Positions 4,342-13,230 of a stretch of DNA of 64,000 nucleotides are shown here, in pieces. The stretch's first letter is position 1; each line of letters opens with the position of its first letter. The DNA is from Deltaproteobacteria bacterium (lineage in GTDB: Bacteria > Myxococcota > XYA12-FULL-58-9 > JAFGEK01), in assembly GCA_016931625.1 (NCBI GenBank), contig JAFGEK010000079.1, positions 258-64,257 of the forward strand. Direction: 5' to 3'. The notes under the pieces were generated by a model. It worked only from the letters and a program-made list of their open reading frames with translations. It searched no databases and was not told where the DNA came from. The translations under genes and the position numbers were made by a program.

Positions 4342-4496
4342 TTTTAAGTGTTATTTATTCATTTGGTTTTCAACAAAGGTTGAGCAATGACTTGTGAGCA
4401 AAAATAAGGCCAATACTAACTGTCTAAAAATACGTTGTTTTAGTTGTAGCTAGGTAAGCAATGTAGCAATTTGCGACACTTTTTTTGAAGATTTTA

Positions 4497-4588
4497 AAAT
4501 TAGCTATCAAAGTAGAAGATCAGGGATAAACTTCCCAAGCCGTAGCAATACCAAGTTGGCCTTGGTAATTATCACCAAAGCAGTAGGG
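4497..4588. repeat. 92 bp direct repeat, copy 1 of 2 (about 90 percent identical to 9241-9332); corresponds to the 3' end of an RCC1-repeat gene
   Basis: aaattagctatcaaagtaga...gggataaacttcccaagccgtagcaataccaagttggccttggtaattatcaccaaagcagtagg matches 9241-9332 with a few mismatches. Confidence 0.85.
4520..4588 (-). pseudogene. orphan 3' fragment of an RCC1-repeat gene (last roughly 22 codons plus stop)
   Basis: The minus-strand translation reads ...PYCFGDNYQGQLGIATAWEVYP*. This is nearly identical to the C-terminus of the 9264-13085 gene (...EAYCFGDNYQGQLGNATAWEVYP*). An in-frame stop lies immediately upstream, so there is no gene body. Confidence 0.75.
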
Positions 4589-4594
4589 TTATAA

Positions 4595-4826
4595 ATTAGT
4601 TTAGTAATAATCGTCTTGCAAACCCTAAATTATTAGGCCAATAGTGGCAAAAGCAATGAGCAAAACATCACCTATAATATTAGATACGGCTAAGTTAGAG
4701 TTGCTAAAGCCCCCTGCGCAGCAACAACTGGCCGCCATTATTGAGTTATATGCTGCCTGCCCATTGGTTGAATATTTAATGTTGTTTGGCAGTTATGCGC
4801 GTGGTGACTTTGTTATTGATGAAAAA
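4595..4826. repeat. roughly 233 bp direct repeat, copy 1 of 2 (promoter/leader plus first roughly 60 codons of the nucleotidyltransferase gene); about 93 percent identical to 6255-6488
   Basis: attagtttagtaataatcgtcttgcaaaccctaaattattaggccaatagtggcaaaagcaatgagcaaaa... is shared by both copies. Homology ends at gatgaaaaa (4826 / 6488). Confidence 0.85.
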
Positions 4827-4883
4827 CTAAAACAACAAACTACTACTGAAAAATTATTTATGCTGTGCTGGAGTATCAAGTGA
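4644..4883 (+). pseudogene. truncated N-terminal fragment (roughly 60 aa) of the nucleotidyltransferase gene duplicated at 6305-7552
   Basis: MAKAMSKTSPIILDTAKLELLKP...LFGSYARGDFVIDEK matches the N-terminus of the 415 aa protein. It then diverges into a short nonsense tail that overlaps the Fic start codon at 4865. Confidence 0.75.
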
Positions 4884-6004
4884 CAAAAAACAATAAAAGC
4901 AACGCTTGGCAGCCATGTTATGAAATTACACCTAATATAGCTAAGTTGCTTATGTCTATTGCCACTATTAAAAGTGAGGTTGAGCATTTAACATTATCGC
5001 TAGTGCTTACCTCTAAGTTGCGGCAACAAGCCAAAATACGCTCAACCCATTATTCAACAAGAATCGAAGGCAATCGTTTAACATTAGCAGAGGCCACACA
5101 GGTGGTTAAACAAGGTAAAATAACTTTTCGTGGTCGTGAGCGCGACGTACGTGAAGTGCGCAATTACTGGAACGCGCTACTTAAAGTTGAGCAATGGGCG
5201 CGTGAACGTAGAATTATAAGCGAAAAGTTACTTCGTGACCTACATGCGTTAGTAGAAATTGGACCACGTGCTCGACCGACACCATATCGCGATGGCCAAA
5301 ACGTAATTAGTGACGCAGTTTCAGGTGCTATAGTGTACTTGCCTCCAGAAGCAAAAGATGTACCTGATCTCATGGCTGGTTTGGTGAAATGGATAAAAGA
5401 AGCCGAGCGAGCTAATATACCAATGCCTTTAATAGCTGGTTTAGCTCATTACCAATTTGTAACCATCCACCCATACTTTGATGGCAATGGACGCACCGCA
5501 CGATTACTTGCGACTTTTATTTTGCAACGCGGTGGTTTTGGCCTTAATGGATACTACTCACTTGAAGAACATCACGCTCGCGATTTGTCAGGCTATTATC
5601 AGGCTCTGGCTGTTCATCCACATCACAACTATTACGAAGGTAGAGCGCAGGCAGATCTAACTTTATGGCTTGAATACTTTATAGCTAAGTTGGCTGACAC
5701 CTTTGCCGCGGTAAAAACTGAGGCCAATCGTCTAACCCAGCACGGTGTTAGCACTATTCCTAAAGGGTTACAAAAACTCGATCAACGCGCCAAAGTAGTA
5801 ATTAGTTTATTTGTCGATGCTGATCATATCACAACCTCAGAGGTGGCGCAGGTATTGGGGCTGTCAGAACGTATGGCGCGATTGTTACTTGCTGATTGGG
5901 TAAATGCTGGTTGGCTGGTAATTGTCGAAGCATCACGCCGTAAGCGCAACTATAAGTTATCGGCAAAATATCGGAAATTTATCGGCAAGCCATCGGCAAA
6001 ATAA
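4865..6004 (+). CDS. Fic/Doc-family protein (putative AMPylating toxin) with N-terminal inhibitory-helix motif and C-terminal winged-helix domain
   Basis: Fic motif HPYFDGNGRTARLL. Upstream STRIEGN fits the [ST]xxxE[GN] auto-inhibition motif. The C-terminal ...SEVAQVLGLSERMARLLL... looks like a wHTH. Confidence 0.85.
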   Translation: MLEYQVTKNNKSNAWQPCYEITPNIAKLLMSIATIKSEVEHLTLSLVLTSKLRQQAKIRSTHYSTRIEGNRLTLAEATQVVKQGKITFRGRERDVREVRNYWNALLKVEQWARERRIISEKLLRDLHALVEIGPRARPTPYRDGQNVISDAVSGAIVYLPPEAKDVPDLMAGLVKWIKEAERANIPMPLIAGLAHYQFVTIHPYFDGNGRTARLLATFILQRGGFGLNGYYSLEEHHARDLSGYYQALAVHPHHNYYEGRAQADLTLWLEYFIAKLADTFAAVKTEANRLTQHGVSTIPKGLQKLDQRAKVVISLFVDADHITTSEVAQVLGLSERMARLLLADWVNAGWLVIVEASRRKRNYKLSAKYRKFIGKPSAK

Positions 6005-6254
6005 CGGTAATAATTTAAAAACAACGCGTTATAGGATGATTAAATAATTCTCGCGTAACTTCTTAATGAGTGCTTGCGAAGCATGGGTGTCATACCGAGT
6101 GCATTGAGAGATCTTACAATGAACATTAAAATAAAGAATCTTATCTGCGCTCTTAAATAACAAGTCTGCTTGCGTTTGTGCCACGATTTATTGAGAAGTT
6201 ACATACTCGCCTAGCTAGCATTTTATGGTTTTGCTCTGCAACATTAGAGTTATG

Positions 6255-6488
6255 CATTAGTTTAGTAATAATCGTCTTGCAAACCCTAAATTATTAGGCC
6301 AATAGTGGCAAAAGCAATGAGCAAAAAAGCACCTATAATATTAGATACGGCTAGGTTAGAGTTGCTAAAGCCCACTGCGCAGCAAAAACTGGCCGCCATT
6401 ATTGAGTTATATGCTGCCTACCCATTGGTTGAATATCTGATGTTGTTTGGCAGTTATGCGCGTGGTGACTTTGTTATTGATGAAAAAA
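6255..6488. repeat. roughly 233 bp direct repeat, copy 2 of 2 (promoter plus 5' end of the intact nucleotidyltransferase gene)
   Basis: See the 4595-4826 entry. Confidence 0.85.
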
Positions 6489-7552
6489 CCGGTTACCGCT
6501 CGGACTTTGATTTGCTTATTGTCACTCAAGCCGCCACTAATAAAGATGAAGACAGAATCTTTTTTGACCTTGAAGAGCAAGCACGTTTAATTACCGGTGA
6601 AACACCTTTATCAATAATTCGACATCATATTGCTGAACTAAATCGCGAAATACGCTCAGGGCAATTCTTTTTTGCCGAGATTGTGCGCGAAGGCATAACG
6701 CTTTATGACACCCATCATGTAAAAATAGCTAAGCCCAAGGCAGCTACTCCACAAGAACGCTTTGAGTTGAGCCGTCGCTATTTTTGCACTTGGTTTGCCA
6801 GCGCTAATGCTTTGTGGATTGTTTCACACAACATAACTTTTGCTGAGCGGCGCATGGCCGCCTTTTTGCAACACCAAGCTGCCGAGCGTTATTTTCATGC
6901 GGTGACTTTGGTGTTTGAAGGCTATAAACATCAAACGCATAATTTAGAATTTTTGGCCAAACGTGCTGAGCTATATCATGAATTATTGCAACCAGCTTTA
7001 GCGCGTAGTGAGCCGCACGATAAACATATATTTAATTTATTACGCCGCGCCTATATCGAGGCCCGCTATAATATGGGCTATGATGTAACGCAAGCTGAGC
7101 TTGATGAATTCAGTATACGCGTGCGTGACTTAGCCAACCGGGTGCATCGTGCTTGCAGTGAAAAACTAGCTTCGTATTTTGGTGGTGAGGCTATTGGCGA
7201 GTTGCCACTCGTGCCGAGCAAAGCTGATGTAAAAATATTGCCGCAACCGCCACCAGAATTTATTGACAATGGAGACTTTAAAATTTGGCAACAACTAGCC
7301 GAAAATTTTGCCAAGCAAGTTGGTGATGAGCGTGAGGCTCAAGGTGAGGCGAGGGGCCATGCCGCTGGCAAAGAAGAAGGGATTTTAGAAGGCCAAGCGC
7401 GGGCAATTATCGATATATTAAAACGAAGAGATATAAAAGTAGATGATGCTATGGCCGCGCAAATATTAAACTGCCGCGATGCTAACTTGTTAGCTAAATA
7501 TTGGGAGCGCGCGTTTGTGGTGGGGTCGGTTGATGAGATGTTGGGTGATTAA
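6305..7552 (+). CDS. three-part fusion: minimal nucleotidyltransferase (Pol-beta fold), HEPN-like helical domain, and C-terminal DUF4351-like domain
   Basis: NTase motif LFGSYARGDF...DFDLLIV. The central helical region has an R/H-rich motif (LLRRAYIEARYN), which I tentatively read as HEPN-like. The C-terminus GEARGHAAGKEEGILEGQARAIIDILKRRDIKVDDAMAAQILNCRDANLLAKYWERAFVVGSVDEML resembles the DUF4351 tail of Rpn/YhgA-like recombination-promoting nucleases. Confidence 0.65.
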   Translation: MAKAMSKKAPIILDTARLELLKPTAQQKLAAIIELYAAYPLVEYLMLFGSYARGDFVIDEKTGYRSDFDLLIVTQAATNKDEDRIFFDLEEQARLITGETPLSIIRHHIAELNREIRSGQFFFAEIVREGITLYDTHHVKIAKPKAATPQERFELSRRYFCTWFASANALWIVSHNITFAERRMAAFLQHQAAERYFHAVTLVFEGYKHQTHNLEFLAKRAELYHELLQPALARSEPHDKHIFNLLRRAYIEARYNMGYDVTQAELDEFSIRVRDLANRVHRACSEKLASYFGGEAIGELPLVPSKADVKILPQPPPEFIDNGDFKIWQQLAENFAKQVGDEREAQGEARGHAAGKEEGILEGQARAIIDILKRRDIKVDDAMAAQILNCRDANLLAKYWERAFVVGSVDEMLGD

Positions 7553-7677
7553 TTAGATACTAGAACTGTATCTTTAATAAGTCAGAAGCTTTTTCATATT
7601 CTAGAAACAGACACATTAAGTAATAGTAAACCATCGCTAAGACTATTATTTTCAAAAATAGGAATAGAAACAGTATA

Positions 7678-8850
7678 TTATTTATTGCTTTCAATTCTAT
7701 ACAATTTATCATTTTGCGATAATTTCACAATGATATATTCATCTTTTTTTAATTCATCTGGTAATTTGTCCTTCAAGATCGAGGCAACAAATTGAATATT
7801 TTTTGATTTAACAAGTTTGCCTATCATGACTAGTTGATTGTCATGCATTAGTTCTTTTTTATCGTTAAGTAAAAAATGCATGCAAGGAATATTTTCTTCA
7901 TCAGCAAAAAGTGTATAGGCAATATCAAAACAAGATATCTCCCCCTGCTTTTTGCCAGAGCTAAAATTAGCATTGAAAGCGGTGAACTCATAAAGGCGTT
8001 GCCCATTTTTTAATGTCTTCTGATCTGCCTTAAGTGCATATTTTTCGCCGTAAAGTTCATAGGAGACAGCTGAAAAATGTCTATTAAATTTATTAACCTG
8101 TTGTTTAATCTTTTCGGCGAATTCATCTGAAAAAAGGCCATCATCGATTTTATTTAGAGTTTGTTTGAGGGTGTATAGTTTATCTTCAACAGTTTTTAAT
8201 TGACTTAATATATGTTCATATTCGCCCATTTTTTGATATTTGAGATTAAGTTCTCCAATCATTGTTTCAAGAACTTCAAATGAGTCTGATTTTGTAACAA
8301 TAGCGCTGAGCCGGGTTTCTTCATCAATGAGATTATTTAATTGACTACGTTTGTTTTTAATATCTATCGCAATATTGGGTAACTCTTGCGCAATGAATTT
8401 TCGCTTCGATTCTACCATTTGGTTATGAAAATTGCATAGTTCTTTAAAAGTCTTCTGAACTTTATCTACAAGAGAAGTCGCTTGAAAATAGATTTGCTTA
8501 AGCTGTTGCTGATCAATATTGGCAACACTTGCCTATAGCTCACTCTGTGCCTCTAAAATTAATTCTTTTCTTAAGTCTAATCTGCTTATTTCTGATGATG
8601 TTATATTAATCTGATATTTAATTTTGTTAAGATTGTTTAGGTCAGATTCAAATGTGGGGTTGAGATTGAGAGCTGCTTTCTGGCTTTCTAAATCTTCAAT
8701 TTCTCCTTGCAAAAGCGCCAATGCAGTTTCATATGCTGCTTTTGTTTGTTCAGCTTCTAGGCGTTTTTTAAATTTTAATTCAACATCAATACTTGCTCGC
8801 AACTCTTGCTTGATATCGCCTTGGGCAAAATCGCAACCCAATAAAAACAA
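7678..8850 (-). pseudogene. N-terminally truncated gene for a DUF2326-like SMC/ABC-type ATPase (coiled coil plus C-terminal ABC lobe), interrupted by an in-frame TAG
   Basis: ORFs 8533-8850 and 7678-8418 are in the same frame, separated by a single amber codon at 8533-8535. The product is coiled-coil rich, then has SSGKKQGE (signature-like) and HFLLNDKKE (Walker B-like). Only about 400 nt lie upstream before the next gene, so the Walker A half is absent. Confidence 0.55.
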
Positions 8851-9240
8851 ATACAGAGTTTCGTATTCATCATCTCGCGTATATCTATCAAGGTTTTTAA
8901 GGGTGTTGTTGATATCAAGGTGATTACAGGTGACACCGTCTTAAAAACAAATAAAACATATTTTCTTTTAATCTTTACAACAAGTTATGGCTTATTTTGC
9001 AAAAACAATGTCCCCAATACTGCCTATCTTAAAATGTAAACTGCAATTAGTCGCTATTTATGTAGATGGCTAATTTCCTAAGTAGCAACTATTAAGTAAT
9101 ACTTAATAGTTCAAATTGAGGAATAATACATGGTAAAACGACTCTCACCGATCAAAGTAAAAACGACTTAAACCACATAGTATTCACCCATCATACCATG
9201 ACAATTTATTGCCTCTTATAATTAACTTTTTTAATTTTTT

Positions 9241-9332
9241 AAATTAGCTATCAAAGTAGACAATTAGGGATAAACTTCCCAAGCCGTAGCATTACCAAGT
9301 TGACCTTGGTAATTATCGCCGAAGCAGTAGGC
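9241..9332. repeat. 92 bp direct repeat, copy 2 of 2 (native 3' end of the RCC1 lipoprotein gene)
   Basis: See the 4497-4588 entry. Confidence 0.85.
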
Positions 9333-12300
9333 TTCGTATACCGCACCGTTTGCGCGAATACCACAAGTGAAGTTATCACCAGCAGCAACTGCCACCCAAT
9401 CAGTTTTGGCGCCGACTTGTACTGGAGTTGCCGATTGGTAAAATTGATAACCAGCGCCTAATTGCCCAGAGTGATTTGCACCCCAGCACCACAGCGAGCC
9501 TTTTCCTGCTGAAGCGTATTGAATACCGCAAGTATGATTTAAACCAGCAGCAACCCAAATCCAGTTATTACCAAGCGAAGTTGAAGATACCGGCGAATAG
9601 ACATCAGTAAAGGTGCCGTTACCTAATTGACCAAGACTATTTGAACCCCAGCAACGCAGCGAACCGGGAAAAGCTGAACCGGTAATACCACAAGTGTGAT
9701 TACCACCAGCACTAGCAGTTAACCATTGGGTTTGGCCGGACCAAGTGTTAGTGGGCATAAGAATTTTTGTCGGTGAATTTGAATCAATACCAATTTGCCC
9801 ATTAGCATTTTTACCCCAGCAGTAAAGTTCGTTATAACCATAAGTATAGTCATGACGAATGGCACACGAATGTTGATCACCAACTGCTAATTGAGTCCAA
9901 TCATCAAAGCTAGTACCGTTTTGCACCATTATTTGTGGAGTATTATAAAAGTTGTCGGATTGATTATTACCTAACTGTCCATCATTATTTTGTCCCCAGC
10001 AATAGACGCTGTTTGAACCTGATATTGATCTAATACCGCAAGTATGTTCTGATCCTGCGCCAACCGCAATCCAATCACTGCTATAATAATATTCACGCTC
10101 TGGTACAGCCCGAGAATTATAGGTACCAGTGCCTAATTGCCCAATGCTATTGTCACCGCTGCAGTATAGTTCGCCACCGTTAATGATAAAGCATGAATGT
10201 TTGGCGCCAGCGGTTACTTTATTAATAGCATTACTACCGCTAAATAGACCCACAGCTTCTTGGCGTGGCGCAATATCATCTATAAATTCTGTTGCAGGTG
10301 TTGGCCATTCATTACCAAGTTGGCCAAAGCGGTCATCACCCCAACACCAGGCTTTACCATATAAATCACGACCACAAGCATGCTTGCCGCCTGTTGATAG
10401 GCTAGTAAGTTCAATATATCCATAGCTAGTGTTAAGAACTTTATCGGTAGGCGCAAGCGTTGCCGCAATACCATTACCAACAGTGCCCTCATTGCGATTA
10501 CCCCAGCAATATAAACCATAACTATTAATTGCACAGGTATGTACAGCCCCAAGTGCGGCAGTAGTTGCGCCGTTTAATACTGCTGATGGACCTTGTGAGT
10601 AAGTATGGCCGACTCCTAATTGTCCATTATAATTACCGCCCCAACATTCAAGGTTATTGTTTCTTATGGCGCAAGTATGATTTGCACCAGCAAAAATCAT
10701 CCCACTCCAGTTGTCACTAAGATATAATGGATAAAGCGAAGATGAAGGTCCTACTTGTAGCCAACTATTATCACCCCAACAATATAACTTATCACCGGTG
10801 TCAAGAGCGCATGCATGTTTTTGTCCAACTACTACATTACGATATTGCATAGTATTATCTACTAAGGTCGGTTGAGATTTATATTGGTTATTACCTATAC
10901 CTAGTTGCCCATAATCGTTTTTACCCCAGCACCATAATGAATAGTCATTTTGAATGCCGCAAGTAAAATCATCACCAAGAGCAAAATCTTGCCATTGATA
11001 GCCACCACTTACAATGTTAGTAAAGTTTGATTCATAATCAGAAGTATTACCGAGACCTAACTGGCCATAACTATTGTTGCCCCAACAATATAAAGTTTTA
11101 TTACTAGTTAGAGCACAAGTATGCCTGGTACCAGCCTTAACTTTAACAAAATTATAGCTATAATCAGCAACCTGCATGGGCTCAGTAGGAATAGAGCCAG
11201 TATAACCTAAACCTAATTGACCGTCAGAATTTGCGCCCCAACACCATAGATCTTGATAAGCACCACCATTGGCATAGCGAAGCCCGCAAGTATGACCGCC
11301 ACCTGCAGTTGCTTGCAGCCAGTTATCTACACCATCAGCAGTTTCAGAGTGAATACGTGTAACCCATCCGATACGTTCATCGCCTAAATCAGGAGCGACT
11401 TGCCCATTTTTATTAGCACCAAAACACCATAAGCTTTGATCAGAGGCAATAGCACAGTTATGCTGTGCGCTCGGACCTGAATCAACAAATTGCCAAACCA
11501 TGCTGACTGTCCAAGTGCGAGTGTCTTCTGTTGTATTTCCAGCAGAGTCAGTAGCCCAAACAGTAAGAGTATGCGATGTTTCGGTTAGTCCATAGCGAGA
11601 AACATTTTCTGGATAATTGGTTGCAGTGGTCACATTTTCACTATCAAATTTATAAGTAATCGTGCAGCCATTATAATCGCTACAGTCAAGGTCTACATTA
11701 AAACTCGTGCGACTATCAGGGGTGGTAGGTGCAGAGGGATAAAAAGTCAGTGATAGTGTTGGTTGAACAGTATCGACGTCCCAATAGTAAGTAGCTCCAT
11801 AGTCATCACGATTATTAGAACTATCAAAGGCCCATACCTCAAATGTATGTGAACCCTCGTCGACATATTGAGAAATTGAACCACCACTACAATCGAAATA
11901 TGCACCATAATCTAAACGACATTCGTAAGTACAATTAGTTTCATTGCAGCTAAAAGTGAAATTTGCATATGAATCATTGGTGAGACTTGATGGTGATGAG
12001 TTAATATAAGTAATTGGAGGCGTAGTGTCAGCGCTTGCGACATACCAGGTGAAAGTAGATGGGCTATTGTCAACGTTGTTGCTGCTGTCAATGGCACGCA
12101 CCGCGAAATAGTGAGTCCCTGGTTGTAGAGAATAATAATCTATAGAGTTTGAAGAGCCATCGCCACAGGGAGCAAATGGTTCAGAATCAAGTCGACAGTC
12201 AAAGCCGGTGACTTGTATATTGTCGCTACCAGAAAAAGAAAAGTAAGCATAAGTGTTGGTTGATGATGAAGCTGGGGTGCTATTTAGGTATGTTTCAGGA

Positions 12301-13085
12301 GATTGAGAGTCAGTAATAGTAGTTACAATATTCCAACGATATTCTGGTGGTTGTGGATCATAATTGCCATTGTTGTCTTTGGCGCGTACACGAAAAACAT
12401 GCTCACCGTAACTTAAACTTGAGTATGAAAATGATCCAGGATTTATATTAGAACATACACTATATCCAGAATTATCAAGTTCGCATTCGAAATTAGCTAT
12501 TCCATAGTTACTACTAGCAGAGAAATAAAAATTTATATCTTTTTGAGTGGTCTGGGCAGTATCAGGATATGCGCTGGTAATAGTAGTAGATGGATATTCA
12601 AATCCAGAACTACTACCACTAGTATCAATTTGCACTTGCCAAGTATAAGATGCAGGATTATTATCTACATTACCAGAATTATCTCGTGCACGAACTTGAA
12701 AAGTATGAGAACCAGTCGATAGATCATTATATTGTATAGAAGCTTGACCACTGTTAGGTACGCCGCAAGGCGAAAAAGAGGCATCATCAAGACTGCAATC
12801 AAAACCAATCACACTATCATTATCTGTGCCGGTATATTTAAATTCAACTGATGTACCACTTGGGTTAGTTGGGGAAGAGGTTATTTGTGTATCTGGTGCA
12901 AGGGTGTCATTGCTAACCATGCTAGAATCATTAGGTACACAGATGTTATTGTTACAGTGAAACTCTTTAGCGCAATCGTCATCAGAATTGCATTTAAAAG
13001 TTTCTTTGTAAATATCCGGTACTTGTACAGTGCAACCGGTTAATAGCCAAATTAAAATAAAACAAGTGGTAAGATAGTGTCGCAT
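9264..13085 (-). CDS. giant secreted lipoprotein: N-terminal tandem roughly 95 aa beta-sandwich-type repeats followed by a long array of RCC1-like repeats
   Basis: Start set at MRHYLTTCFILIWLLTGC (lipobox LTGC, GAGGGAG Shine-Dalgarno upstream). Five to six repeats of the pattern F(D/E)C.LD...F..C....HTF.VRA.D..GN.D. Then more than 15 CWG.N..GQLG RCC1-type repeats. Confidence 0.85.
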   Translation of the reverse strand: MRHYLTTCFILIWLLTGCTVQVPDIYKETFKCNSDDDCAKEFHCNNNICVPNDSSMVSNDTLAPDTQITSSPTNPSGTSVEFKYTGTDNDSVIGFDCSLDDASFSPCGVPNSGQASIQYNDLSTGSHTFQVRARDNSGNVDNNPASYTWQVQIDTSGSSSGFEYPSTTITSAYPDTAQTTQKDINFYFSASSNYGIANFECELDNSGYSVCSNINPGSFSYSSLSYGEHVFRVRAKDNNGNYDPQPPEYRWNIVTTITDSQSPETYLNSTPASSSTNTYAYFSFSGSDNIQVTGFDCRLDSEPFAPCGDGSSNSIDYYSLQPGTHYFAVRAIDSSNNVDNSPSTFTWYVASADTTPPITYINSSPSSLTNDSYANFTFSCNETNCTYECRLDYGAYFDCSGGSISQYVDEGSHTFEVWAFDSSNNRDDYGATYYWDVDTVQPTLSLTFYPSAPTTPDSRTSFNVDLDCSDYNGCTITYKFDSENVTTATNYPENVSRYGLTETSHTLTVWATDSAGNTTEDTRTWTVSMVWQFVDSGPSAQHNCAIASDQSLWCFGANKNGQVAPDLGDERIGWVTRIHSETADGVDNWLQATAGGGHTCGLRYANGGAYQDLWCWGANSDGQLGLGYTGSIPTEPMQVADYSYNFVKVKAGTRHTCALTSNKTLYCWGNNSYGQLGLGNTSDYESNFTNIVSGGYQWQDFALGDDFTCGIQNDYSLWCWGKNDYGQLGIGNNQYKSQPTLVDNTMQYRNVVVGQKHACALDTGDKLYCWGDNSWLQVGPSSSLYPLYLSDNWSGMIFAGANHTCAIRNNNLECWGGNYNGQLGVGHTYSQGPSAVLNGATTAALGAVHTCAINSYGLYCWGNRNEGTVGNGIAATLAPTDKVLNTSYGYIELTSLSTGGKHACGRDLYGKAWCWGDDRFGQLGNEWPTPATEFIDDIAPRQEAVGLFSGSNAINKVTAGAKHSCFIINGGELYCSGDNSIGQLGTGTYNSRAVPEREYYYSSDWIAVGAGSEHTCGIRSISGSNSVYCWGQNNDGQLGNNQSDNFYNTPQIMVQNGTSFDDWTQLAVGDQHSCAIRHDYTYGYNELYCWGKNANGQIGIDSNSPTKILMPTNTWSGQTQWLTASAGGNHTCGITGSAFPGSLRCWGSNSLGQLGNGTFTDVYSPVSSTSLGNNWIWVAAGLNHTCGIQYASAGKGSLWCWGANHSGQLGAGYQFYQSATPVQVGAKTDWVAVAAGDNFTCGIRANGAVYEAYCFGDNYQGQLGNATAWEVYP

Positions 13086-13230
13086 TGCTCCCTCACAGCT
13101 AGTAACAATAAGGTATAACGGCTCTATTTTGAAAAACATGTAGTGCGATTTTAAAAAGGTTAATTCGAGGTAGTAAAAAATAGTAATAATGTAGTATAAA
13201 CGCAGATACTTATATTAGTTAGGCATAAGC

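What the first reader, a model, noticed from the sequence alone, without database searches (positions are those of the whole stretch)
6305..7552. Unusual three-domain fusion: nucleotidyltransferase plus HEPN-like plus DUF4351-like tail
Minimal NTase/HEPN pairs are common TA or defence modules but are usually separate genes or two-domain fusions. Here a C-terminal segment (…GEARGHAAGKEEGILEGQARAIIDILKRRDIKVDDAMAAQILNCRDANLLAKYWERAFVVGSVDEML) resembles the DUF4351 tail normally found on Rpn/YhgA PD-(D/E)XK recombination-promoting nucleases. I am not aware of this tail on an NTase. The gene is immediately downstream of a Fic toxin, which raises the possibility of a functional Fic/NTase pairing such as an antitoxin or modifier.
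Basis: partly seen in the sequence, partly recalled or inferred. Interest (0 to 1): 0.55.

Follow-up and report, generated by a model that had tools for sequence, protein, structure and literature searches.

The report
NTase-HEPN enzyme with Rpn-type tail
This gene encodes a nucleotidyltransferase fused to a catalytically degenerate HEPN domain and to the hypervariable-repeat C-terminal module otherwise known from Rpn nucleases; the fusion recurs in more than a hundred proteins (mainly Myxococcota) but appears undescribed, and it has no detectable functional tie to the neighbouring Fic gene.

Summary
The ORF (6305-7552, +, 415 aa) is real and has three parts:
- A Pol-beta/MNT-type nucleotidyltransferase. 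The GS...DxD residues are invariant across the family.
- A classical HEPN domain. The RNase His is replaced by Ala (R-x4-A-x-Y).
- After a Pro-rich linker, a tail made of a long helix with 4-residue Gly repeats plus a small helical module.

Pfam's DUF4351 model does not detect this tail. Four other results show it is the Rpn/DUF4351-type module:
- A repeat-trimmed profile-profile comparison with bona fide DUF4351 proteins gives 97% probability (E 7e-11). Shuffled controls reach at most 2%.
- The same tail sits on PDDEXK_2/Rpn-family nucleases, with 41% identity to one of them.
- A sister protein carries a Pfam-positive DUF4351 at the same position.
- Near-identical alleles differ by 4-aa-multiple indels in the repeats, as reported for RpnS.

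The architecture is not unique. Among the 120 best-scoring homologues, 108 carry a tail, and they are mostly from Myxococcota. The tail-less NTase-HEPN core is widespread as a stand-alone gene.

The proposed Fic pairing is not supported. The Fic protein is a self-inhibited, SoFic-like single-gene defence protein. It sits between 246-nt direct repeats that duplicate the NTase gene's 5' end, and Fic is adjacent in only 1 of 80 related loci.

Verdict: a new variant combining two known modules, of moderate interest.

The parts
6305..7552 (+). Whole gene, 415 aa from GTG 6305. The public annotation starts at ATG 6317 (411 aa).
   Evidence: P0001, 100% identity.
6398..6709 (+). Pol-beta/MNT-type nucleotidyltransferase domain (residues ~32-135). 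G49-S50 and D67-x-D69 are invariant in 43 family members.
   Evidence: Pfam Polbeta E 9e-7, NTP_transf_2 E 3e-4. Column counts. Foldseek hits to MNT antitoxins and HalB.
6749..7180 (+). Classical HEPN domain (residues ~149-292, four long helices). The motif is [R/K]248-x4-A253-x-Y255, so the RNase His is replaced by Ala. R254 and Y255 are invariant.
   Evidence: Pfam HEPN E 2e-6. PDB 4NQF at E 5.6e-8 by sequence and TM 0.89 by fold. Column counts.
7181..7267 (+). Pro-rich, low-confidence linker (residues ~293-321).
   Evidence: AF2 pLDDT 61-80 and no regular secondary structure.
7268..7393 (+). Long helix of the tail (H322-374 in the model). It includes the 4-residue Gly repeats, with Gly at 347, 351, 355, 359 and 363.
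   Evidence: Repeat number ranges from 1 to 37 across the family. Indels between near-identical alleles are multiples of 4 aa.
7391..7549 (+). DUF4351/RpnS-like helical end module (residues ~363-415).
   Evidence: hhalign against PF14261 proteins: 97.1% probability, E 6.8e-11, 52 columns; controls reach at most 2%. 41% identity to the tail of PDDEXK_2 protein P0377. AF2 pLDDT 94-97.
6242..6487 (.). Copy 2 of the 246-nt direct repeat: 63 nt upstream plus the first 61 codons of the gene.
   Evidence: 95% identity to copy 1.
4581..4826 (.). Copy 1 of the 246-nt direct repeat. It contains a truncated 79-aa remnant ORF (4644-4883) that runs out of frame into the start of the Fic gene.
4865..6004 (+). 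SoFic-like Fic gene. This is context only and not part of the fusion. It is class II self-inhibited (STRIEG at residue 64, HPYFDGNGRTAR at residue 202).
   Evidence: Pfam Fic E 1.4e-15. PADLOC SoFic E 1.5e-48. Motifs.

Best explanation
The gene encodes a stand-alone, single-polypeptide MNT-HEPN enzyme. A subfamily of these enzymes, mainly in Myxococcota, has acquired the C-terminal module of Rpn-type nucleases (RpnS/DUF4351-like).

Shown here:
- The NTase catalytic residues (GS...DxD) are intact and invariant.
- The HEPN domain has lost the canonical RNase His but keeps the invariant Arg and Tyr.
- The tail is homologous to DUF4351 and is the same module found on PD-(D/E)XK Rpn-family nucleases.
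- Its 4-aa repeat number is hypervariable between near-identical alleles.

Inferred:
- The NTase is the active moiety, and the HEPN domain serves as its substrate-binding or regulatory partner, as in other fused MNT-HEPN proteins.
- The tail acts as a length-coded dimerisation and partner-specificity module, by analogy with RpnS. It would gate the enzyme's activity either through homo-oligomerisation or through pairing with a free tail-only protein.
- The unit is a mobile, probably conflict- or defence-related gene sitting in a small island.

The adjacent Fic gene is an independent SoFic-like gene. It arrived by a recombination event that duplicated the NTase gene's promoter-proximal 246 nt.
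For: Domains and motifs:
- G49, S50, D67, D69, R254 and Y255 are invariant, and A253 replaces the His.
- The literature states that HEPN domains fused to MNT typically lack RNase residues and act as substrate-binding or regulatory domains (PMC3710099).

Tail homology:
- hhalign gives 97.1% probability, E 6.8e-11. Thirty shuffled-column controls and a reversed control reach at most 2%.
- P0044, a family member, has a Pfam-positive DUF4351 at the same position.
- The type-A tail occurs on PDDEXK_2/Rpn-family proteins: the L007 neighbour, P0377, P0335 and P0339, and by direct BLAST to P0377.

Hypervariable repeats:
- Repeat number ranges from 1 to 37. Near-identical alleles differ by 32-aa and 24-aa indels.
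- This matches RpnS as described in PMC10400941.

Stand-alone gene:
- No neighbour is conserved across 80 loci.

Mobile or defence setting:
- SoFic and a broken PDC-M68B gene are adjacent.
- Direct repeats bracket the segment.
- A PIN/PhdYeFM pair sits next to the homologue in L001.
- Relaxase and coupling-protein genes sit next to the alphaproteobacterial cores.
Against: - No biochemical or genetic evidence exists for any activity.
- Pfam's DUF4351 HMM fails on this tail.
- The tail profile does not hit the RpnA-S sequence in the PDB.
- Foldseek on the tail model finds no significant PDB match, 7TH0 included. The structural equivalence to RpnS is therefore unproven.
- No tail-only partner gene exists in the 64-kb window.
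- The family has no conserved internal Met upstream of the repeats. An RpnS-style intragenic antitoxin is therefore not indicated.
- PADLOC and NCBIfam give only weak NTase-level hits, so a defence role rests on context alone.
Confidence: 0.6

Rival explanations
1. Fic and the NTase fusion form a functional pair. The NTase protein would act as antitoxin or modifier of the Fic toxin, or the reverse.
For: The genes are adjacent on the same strand. The Fic gene sits behind a duplicated copy of the NTase gene's upstream region and 5' end, so both could be expressed from similar promoters. One related locus, L041, also has a Fic homologue next to a tail-less core.
Against: Adjacency occurs in only 1 of 80 loci, and the closest context available (L001) lacks Fic. 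The Fic protein is a near full-length match to the single-gene system SoFic and has its own [ST]xxxE[GN] inhibitory helix. The repeat structure shows that Fic was inserted secondarily.
Confidence: 0.06
2. The protein is a self-contained type VII toxin-antitoxin analogue. The HEPN domain would be a toxin kept off in cis by NTase-catalysed AMPylation of Tyr255, with the tail controlling release.
For: The NTase motif GS-x16-DxD is invariant. Tyr255 lies exactly at the HxY tyrosine position of the HepT RX4HXY motif and is invariant. 'Class II' HEPN/MNT pairs also lack RX4H but keep the Tyr (PMC7641770). Foldseek matches MNT antitoxins and HEPN-MNT complexes.
Against: The catalytic His is replaced by Ala in 41 of 43 members. 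HEPN domains fused to MNT are considered inactive (PMC3710099). No toxicity data exist.
Confidence: 0.15
3. The protein is a small-molecule or antibiotic nucleotidyltransferase of the KNTase / ANT / AAD(9) type. The tail would be nothing more than a dimerisation helix.
For: It has the same two-domain layout, an NTase followed by a HEPN-like helical domain. Foldseek hits AAD(9) 6XZ0 and the NTase-like protein 3C18. The alphaproteobacterial cores lie on conjugative elements.
Against: The fold hits are weak (E 4e-3 to 8e-3, rmsd above 11 A across domains). No resistance-family HMM matches. A hypervariable, swappable Rpn-type tail is hard to explain for a housekeeping resistance enzyme.
Confidence: 0.1
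4. The tail resemblance is a low-complexity coincidence. Gly/charged repeats similar to those of FliH or Yae1 would be producing spurious similarity.
For: Pfam reports only Yae1_N for 12 of 35 tails and nothing for this one. NCBIfam gives a weak FliH hit over the repeats.
Against: With the repeats trimmed off, the globular end module still aligns end to end with DUF4351 at 97% probability, against at most 2% for shuffled controls. A gapless 41%-identity alignment to a PDDEXK_2 tail extends through the non-repeat part.
Confidence: 0.03

Closest known systems
RpnS / DUF4351 (PF14261) C-terminal module of Rpn (YhgA-like) recombination-promoting nucleases (Zhong et al. 2023, PMC10400941; PDB 7TH0)
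   Same: Both have a long first helix carrying 4-aa repeats, followed by a small helical bundle at the extreme C-terminus. Repeat number is hypervariable between near-identical alleles and changes in multiples of four residues. The end module is swappable: types A to D here, the 'variable C-terminal tail' in Rpn. Homology to PF14261 proteins holds at profile level. The identical tail type is found on PDDEXK_2/Rpn-family nucleases and as stand-alone small genes downstream of nuclease domains.
   Different: Here the module is attached to an NTase-HEPN enzyme, not a PD-(D/E)XK nuclease. The Pfam PF14261 HMM does not score it. There is no sequence or Foldseek match to E. coli RpnA-S. The family has no conserved internal Met or initiation site ahead of the repeats. 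Antitoxin activity is untested.
Fused MNT-HEPN nucleotidyltransferases (KNTase/ANT(4'), AAD(9), GlnE/GlnD, DrrA class; Anantharaman et al. 2013, PMC3710099)
   Same: An N-terminal Pol-beta-type NTase with intact catalytic carboxylates is followed in one chain by a HEPN-fold helical domain lacking RNase residues.
   Different: The HEPN domain here is of the classical PF05168 type, closest to 4NQF, rather than the aminoglycoside-NT C-terminal families. The substrate is unknown. The extra Rpn-type tail is not described for these enzymes.
HepT/MntA type VII toxin-antitoxin system (Yao et al. 2020, PMC7641770)
   Same: It shares the MNT-type NTase with a GS...DxD motif, a HEPN partner, and a conserved Tyr at the position that MntA AMPylates.
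   Different: It is one polypeptide rather than two genes. The NTase spacing is GS-x16-DxD rather than x10. The RX4H His is replaced by Ala, so an RNase toxin is unlikely.
Hailong HalB oligodeoxyadenylate synthase (PDB 9DBH/9DBJ)
   Same: It is the best multi-domain fold hit for the NTase plus helical region (Foldseek E ~4e-4). There is also a weak NCBIfam hit (E 6.8e-5).
   Different: The score is 22.6 bits against a 190-bit cut-off. Rmsd is about 16 A over the aligned columns. No HalA-like effector gene is adjacent, and HalB has no tail.

Membership tests
DUF4351 (Pfam PF14261) | Scores above the Pfam gathering threshold (25 bits) against the PF14261 HMM. | tested here: not met
   The tail scanned alone gives no hit even at E <= 10. 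Only 1 of 35 family tails (P0044's) hits, at E 1.4e-6.
DUF4351 (Pfam PF14261) | Homology of the ~55-aa helical module to bona fide PF14261 proteins (superfamily-level relationship). | tested here: met
   hhalign with repeats trimmed and P0044 excluded: 97.1% probability, E 6.8e-11, 52 of 54 columns. Thirty shuffled-column controls and one reversed control reach at most 2%.
RpnS-type module of Rpn nucleases | The same module occurs at the C-terminus of PD-(D/E)XK Rpn-family nucleases. | tested here: met
   The L007 neighbour is PDDEXK_2 (E 9.8e-8) and TIGR01784 (E 6.9e-7) and carries a type-A tail scoring 73 bits. P0377 is full-length PDDEXK_2 (E 4.8e-50) with the tail at 260-332. The window tail is 41% identical to it.
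RpnS-type module of Rpn nucleases | A long helix with 4-aa repeats whose number varies between closely related alleles. | tested here: met
   Gly at 347/351/355/359/363. Runs range from 1 to 37 across 108 tails. P0008 and P0076 are ~98% identical apart from a 32-aa indel, and P0008 and P0010 differ by a 24-aa indel.
RpnS-type module of Rpn nucleases | Three-helix-bundle dimer fold as in PDB 7TH0. | tested here: inconclusive
RpnS-type module of Rpn nucleases | Separate translation of the small domain from an internal start site, acting as an antitoxin to the long form. | not testable with these tools
   The only in-frame candidates are TTG300, GTG303 and TTG312. The family has no conserved Met before the repeats. 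By contrast, Rpn-like relatives share an internal 'MKGYEYQSDF' that is also the start of stand-alone tails.
HepT/MntA type VII TA | RX4HXY motif in the HEPN domain (RNase His plus AMPylated Tyr). | tested here: not met
   The motif is [R/K]248-x4-A253-x-Y255. Ala is present in 41 of 43 members and Tyr is invariant. Motif definition from PMC7641770.
HepT/MntA type VII TA | GSX10DXD motif in the NTase, and a two-gene operon. | tested here: not met
   GS and DxD are invariant, but the spacing is 16 residues, and the two domains are fused in one ORF.
Fused MNT-HEPN enzymes (KNTase-like class) | A Pol-beta NTase domain followed in the same chain by a HEPN-fold domain lacking RNase residues. | tested here: met
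   Class description in PMC3710099.
Hailong HalB | NCBIfam NF051895 equivalog score of at least 190 bits. | tested here: not met
   22.6 bits, E 6.8e-5, NTase region only.
SoFic (the neighbouring gene, not the finding itself) | Near full-length match to the SoFic model, plus the Fic active-site motif and an intramolecular inhibitory motif. | tested here: met
   PADLOC SoFic E 1.5e-48, residues 52-363 against model positions 52-349 of 361. HPYFDGNGRTAR at 202 and STRIEG at 64. The NCBIfam equivalog cut-off is not reached (50.8 against 550 bits), so it is SoFic-like rather than an orthologue.

The most novel reading that the evidence does not exclude
The RpnS/DUF4351 hypervariable-repeat tail is a portable, length-coded specificity and auto-inhibition module. 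It has been grafted onto unrelated effectors: at least two PD-(D/E)XK nuclease families and, here, an NTase-HEPN enzyme. Each graft would produce a self-contained toxin-antitoxin or defence unit, and the very abundant free or tandem tail-only proteins would act as trans-acting antitoxins or decoys. The tail profile finds 17,008 representative proteins at E <= 1e-3. On this reading the NTase-HEPN-tail family is the first non-nuclease member of an 'Rpn-like' regulatory logic.
Probability: 0.3. Interest if true: 0.7.

Novelty: new variant of a known kind. Interest (0 to 1): 0.5.

Why it matters
Rpn proteins were recently shown to be toxin-antitoxin/defence units, and their specificity is set by a hypervariable 4-aa-repeat helix in the C-terminal RpnS domain. 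Here the same module, with the same repeat dynamics, sits on an enzyme of a completely different class. That implies the module works independently of the nuclease and can be transplanted between effectors.

This gives a concrete second system for asking what the repeat-length code recognises. It also provides a handle on the unknown function of the widespread stand-alone NTase-HEPN fusions. In addition, many tail-bearing and tail-only proteins currently escape the Pfam DUF4351 model, so the family is much larger than annotated.

For the window itself, the Fic neighbour can be set aside as an independent insertion.

Tried and rejected
- **Pfam on the tail alone (two cuts, E <= 10):** no hit. 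Per-member Pfam scan of 35 tails: only P0044 hits DUF4351.
- **Tail profile against PDB sequences:** no RpnA-S hit.
- **Foldseek of the tail model against PDB:** nothing below E 1.
- **The look-up of encoding contigs for the closest homologues, P0002 and P0003:** not on record. An 'empty site' without Fic could therefore not be found.
- **The search for homologous proteins with the 85-aa tail profile:** it listed only proteins of 148 aa or fewer. The family's own 400-aa members were missing, so that list could not be used for architecture statistics. The exhaustive representative search was used instead.
- **Fic as a conserved partner:** rejected.
- **A tail-only partner gene in the window:** none found.
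- **An internal ATG for an RpnS-like small protein:** none found. Only TTG/GTG codons at 300-312 are in frame.
- **Promoter and terminator scans:** no enrichment over shuffles.
- **tRNA or integrase as an island anchor:** no tRNA in the window, and no integrase-sized ORF inside 4591-9226.
- **HalB, MntA and PDC-S09 membership:** only weak NTase-level similarity.
Full report
**1. The observation**

A public MAG record ('Deltaproteobacteria bacterium') holds the identical protein starting four codons later, at ATG 6317 (P0001).

- **NTase.** Pfam places a Pol-beta-type nucleotidyltransferase at residues 32-135. E is 1e-5 in the whole protein and 9e-7 when the segment is scanned alone.
- **HEPN.** A PF05168 HEPN domain lies at residues 183-268 (E 1e-5 / 2e-6, above its cut-off).
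- **Support for HEPN.** The solved HEPN protein 4NQF matches by sequence at E 5.6e-8. The AlphaFold2 model (mean pLDDT 89) matches it with TM 0.89 and rmsd 1.6 A.
- **Fic.** A Fic-domain gene lies immediately upstream at 4865-6004.

**2. The tail and Pfam**

Scanned alone, the tail gives no Pfam hit at all, even at E <= 10. Four independent lines show that would be wrong.

**(i) Family behaviour.**
- The protein belongs to a family with 649 hits at E <= 1e-3. Most of the 120 best are about 400 aa and come from Polyangia, Myxococcales or 'Deltaproteobacteria' MAGs.
- Of those 120, 108 extend at least 85 aa beyond the HEPN domain.
- All the tails share one plan: a Pro-rich linker, a helix, a run of 'xxxG' four-residue repeats, and then a ~55-aa helical end module.
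- The end module comes in at least four interchangeable types.
- The commonest type, type A, is the one in the window.
- One member, P0044, has at the same position a module that Pfam does call DUF4351 (E 1.4e-6).

**(ii) Profile-profile comparison.**
- I trimmed away the Gly repeats and removed P0044 from the query side.
- I then compared 34 type-A end modules with nine proteins that carry a precomputed PF14261 annotation.
- hhalign gives 97.1% probability, E 6.8e-11, over 52 contiguous columns.
- Thirty column-shuffled versions of the DUF4351 alignment reach at most 2.0%, and the reversed alignment 0.4%.

**(iii) The same tail on Rpn-type nucleases.**
- In locus L007 (a Polyangiaceae MAG), the gene directly downstream of a family member is a PD-(D/E)XK protein carrying a type-A tail.
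- That neighbour scores Pfam PDDEXK_2 E 9.8e-8 and NCBIfam TIGR01784 'Rpn family recombination-promoting nuclease/putative transposase' E 6.9e-7. Its tail scores 73 bits against my tail HMM.
- An exhaustive search of 1.84 billion representative proteins with the tail profile finds 17,008 proteins at E <= 1e-3 and 4,660 at E <= 1e-10.
- Among the best hits, P0377 is a full-length PDDEXK_2 nuclease (E 4.8e-50) with the tail at residues 260-332. P0335 and P0339 are similar.
- The window's own tail aligns to P0377's tail without gaps at 41% identity over 70 residues (E 3e-13).

**(iv) Evolutionary behaviour.**
- The Rpn study describes RpnS as follows (PMC10400941):
  - It is the C-terminal domain of Rpn nucleases.
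  - It is a three-helix-bundle dimer whose long first helix carries 4-aa repeats.
  - The repeat number varies between strains and sets RpnL-RpnS pairing specificity.
  - Stand-alone RpnS genes are annotated DUF4351.
- In the window protein, Gly falls at 347, 351, 355, 359 and 363.
- Across 108 family tails, the longest Gly period-4 run ranges from 1 to 37.
- P0008 and P0076 are about 98% identical except for a 32-residue (8 x 4) indel inside the repeats. P0008 and P0010 differ there by 24 residues (6 x 4).

What remains unproven is structural equivalence to E. coli RpnA-S.
- The tail profile does not hit its sequence in the PDB.
- Foldseek of the confident tail model finds nothing significant in the PDB. 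That model has pLDDT 86 and consists of one long helix plus three short ones.

**3. The core**

- **Widespread and stand-alone.**
  - The two-domain NTase-HEPN core, without a tail, is widespread as a ~275-325-aa protein. It occurs in Bacteroidota, Alphaproteobacteria, Planctomycetota, Victivallales and others.
  - Matches that reach the tail are confined to Myxococcota genomes among 80 species-representative loci.
  - Clustering of flanking ORFs finds no conserved neighbour. The only recurrent neighbours are relaxase and coupling-protein genes in the alphaproteobacterial subset.
  - The core is therefore a stand-alone, mobile gene.
- **NTase motif.** Across 43 aligned family members, G49, S50, D67 and D69 are invariant.
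- **HEPN motif.**
  - Where HepT toxins have RX4HXY, this family has [R/K]248-x4-A253-x-Y255. Ala is present in 41 of 43 members, and R254 and Y255 are invariant (motif from PMC7641770).
  - The RNase His is therefore gone, while the Tyr that MntA AMPylates in HepT is retained.
  - This agrees with the HEPN survey: HEPN domains fused to MNTs typically lack the RNase residues and serve as substrate-binding or regulatory domains. Its examples are KNTase, GlnE and DrrA (PMC3710099).
- **Fold neighbours.** These are 4NQF (HEPN), Hailong HalB, the MNT antitoxins, and the two-domain enzymes 3C18 and AAD(9).
- **No curated family.** No curated family threshold is reached. HalB scores 22.6 bits against a 190-bit cut-off, MntA scores 18.4 against 60, and PADLOC PDC-S09 gives E 1e-5.

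**4. Likely mechanism**

Shown:
- The NTase active site is intact.
- The HEPN domain is RNase-degenerate.
- The tail is the Rpn/DUF4351-type module, with hypervariable repeats.

Inferred:
- The NTase is the catalytic moiety, and the HEPN domain helps bind its substrate or nucleotide.
- The tail is joined by a flexible Pro-rich linker (pLDDT 61-80). It would provide length-coded dimerisation or partner specificity that gates activity, by analogy with RpnS.

Whether a free tail is produced is open.
- The Rpn-like nucleases of the same clades share an internal 'MKGYEYQSDF' motif.
  - This motif is also where stand-alone tail genes begin.
  - In Sorangium the nuclease domain and the tail are separate adjacent genes.
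  - This matches the RpnL/RpnS arrangement.
- The NTase-HEPN family has a different pre-repeat segment ('AFEAWRxAL...ERGE') with no conserved Met.
- The window gene offers only TTG/GTG codons at 300-312.
- No tail-only ORF exists elsewhere in the window.

A cis-acting type VII-like model, with auto-AMPylation of Y255, remains a live rival. A small-molecule NTase role is a weaker one.

**5. The Fic neighbour**

- The Fic protein matches PADLOC's single-gene defence protein SoFic nearly end to end (E 1.5e-48).
- It has the Fic motif HPYFDGNGRTAR and an N-terminal STRIEG inhibitory motif. It is therefore a self-inhibited class II Fic that needs no separate antitoxin.
- Only 1 of 80 related loci has a Fic homologue nearby. 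The closest homologue with retrievable context sits next to a PIN/PhdYeFM pair instead.
- The Fic segment (4827-6241) lies between two 246-nt direct repeats of 95% identity, at 4581-4826 and 6242-6487.
  - Each repeat consists of the 63 nt upstream of the NTase gene plus its first 61 codons.
  - The upstream copy is a 79-aa out-of-frame remnant.
- Fic was therefore inserted secondarily, by an event that duplicated the NTase gene's 5' end. It may now use a copy of that promoter, but there is no evidence of functional coupling.

**6. Wider setting**

- A second, older pair of 108-nt direct repeats (88% identity), at 4483-4590 and 9227-9334, brackets the whole ~4.7-kb segment. Copy 2 is the 3' end of the large minus-strand gene ending at 9264.
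- The segment contains the NTase remnant, Fic, the NTase-HEPN-tail gene, and a broken DUF2326/PDC-M68B gene (7678-8418 and 8533-8850).
- GC content drops to 0.32-0.34 at 7500-9000.
- This looks like a small, decaying defence-type islet between a comM/yifB-like gene and the large repeat-protein gene. No tRNA or integrase was seen.

**7. Novelty and score**

- Both building blocks are known. Their combination is not described in the searchable literature, where DUF4351 appears in only two distinct works.
- Databases label these proteins only as 'HEPN domain-containing protein'.
- I rate this a new variant of a known kind.
- The point of interest is that the Rpn-type hypervariable module is portable to a non-nuclease effector and keeps its repeat dynamics there. 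That makes its function testable in a second context.
- Interest: 0.5.

Noticed in passing
window 4581-4826 and 6242-6487; remnant ORF 4644-4883: A 246-nt direct repeat (95% identity) consists of 63 nt upstream plus the first 61 codons of the NTase gene. It flanks the 1415-nt Fic segment. The upstream copy is a truncated 79-aa ORF that ends out of frame and overlaps the Fic GTG start.
   Followed up: partly
window 4483-4590 and 9227-9334: A 108-nt direct repeat (88% identity) brackets a ~4.7-kb segment (4591-9226) holding Fic, the NTase fusion and broken defence genes. Copy 2 is the 3' end of the 1291-aa minus-strand ORF, and copy 1 abuts the 246-nt repeat directly. The layout is island-like, but no integrase or tRNA was found.
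   Followed up: partly
window 5954-6011: About five tandem copies of an 11-nt unit (ATCGGCAAA-like) lie inside the 3' end of the Fic coding sequence and across its stop codon. Their significance is unknown.
   Followed up: no
window 7678-8418 (-) and 8533-8850 (-): A DUF2326 / PADLOC PDC-M68B gene appears broken. The 246-aa ORF matches only model positions 333-557 of 581, and a separate 105-aa ORF lies upstream. GC content here is only 0.32-0.34.
   Followed up: partly
L007 3189-4415 and ~4528-5415: In a Polyangiaceae MAG, an NTase-HEPN family gene with a type-B tail is directly followed by a PDDEXK_2/Rpn-family nuclease gene with a type-A tail. This adjacency could explain how tails are exchanged between the two effector families.
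   Followed up: partly
P0241, P0242, P0250, P0248: The best-scoring hits to the tail profile are proteins made of 2-4 tandem copies of the repeat-plus-end-module unit with no enzymatic domain. Many single-module proteins of 70-150 aa also exist. In total the profile finds 17,008 representatives at E <= 1e-3, and most of those examined carry no Pfam annotation.
   Followed up: partly
P0277, P0329, P0349, P0384, P0341; L082 3388-3945 + 4001-4408: A nuclease-like N-terminal domain family ('SSPHEALHQLFRE...ERRADLVL...VVE.Q') has no Pfam hit and carries type-A tails. In Sorangium it is split into an N-domain gene and a tail-only gene starting at 'MKGYEYQSDF'. This is probably an unmodelled Rpn-like family.
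   Followed up: partly
L032, L044, L045, L053, L061, L080 and other alphaproteobacterial loci: The tail-less NTase-HEPN core genes in Sphingomonadales, Rhizobiales and Caulobacterales sit next to relaxase and type IV coupling-protein genes. They are therefore on conjugative elements.
   Followed up: no
window 9264-13139 (-): A 1291-aa ORF has an N-terminal hydrophobic segment and many 'CWG.N..GQLG'-type repeats. It looks like a secreted RCC1-like repeat protein. It was not analysed.
   Followed up: no
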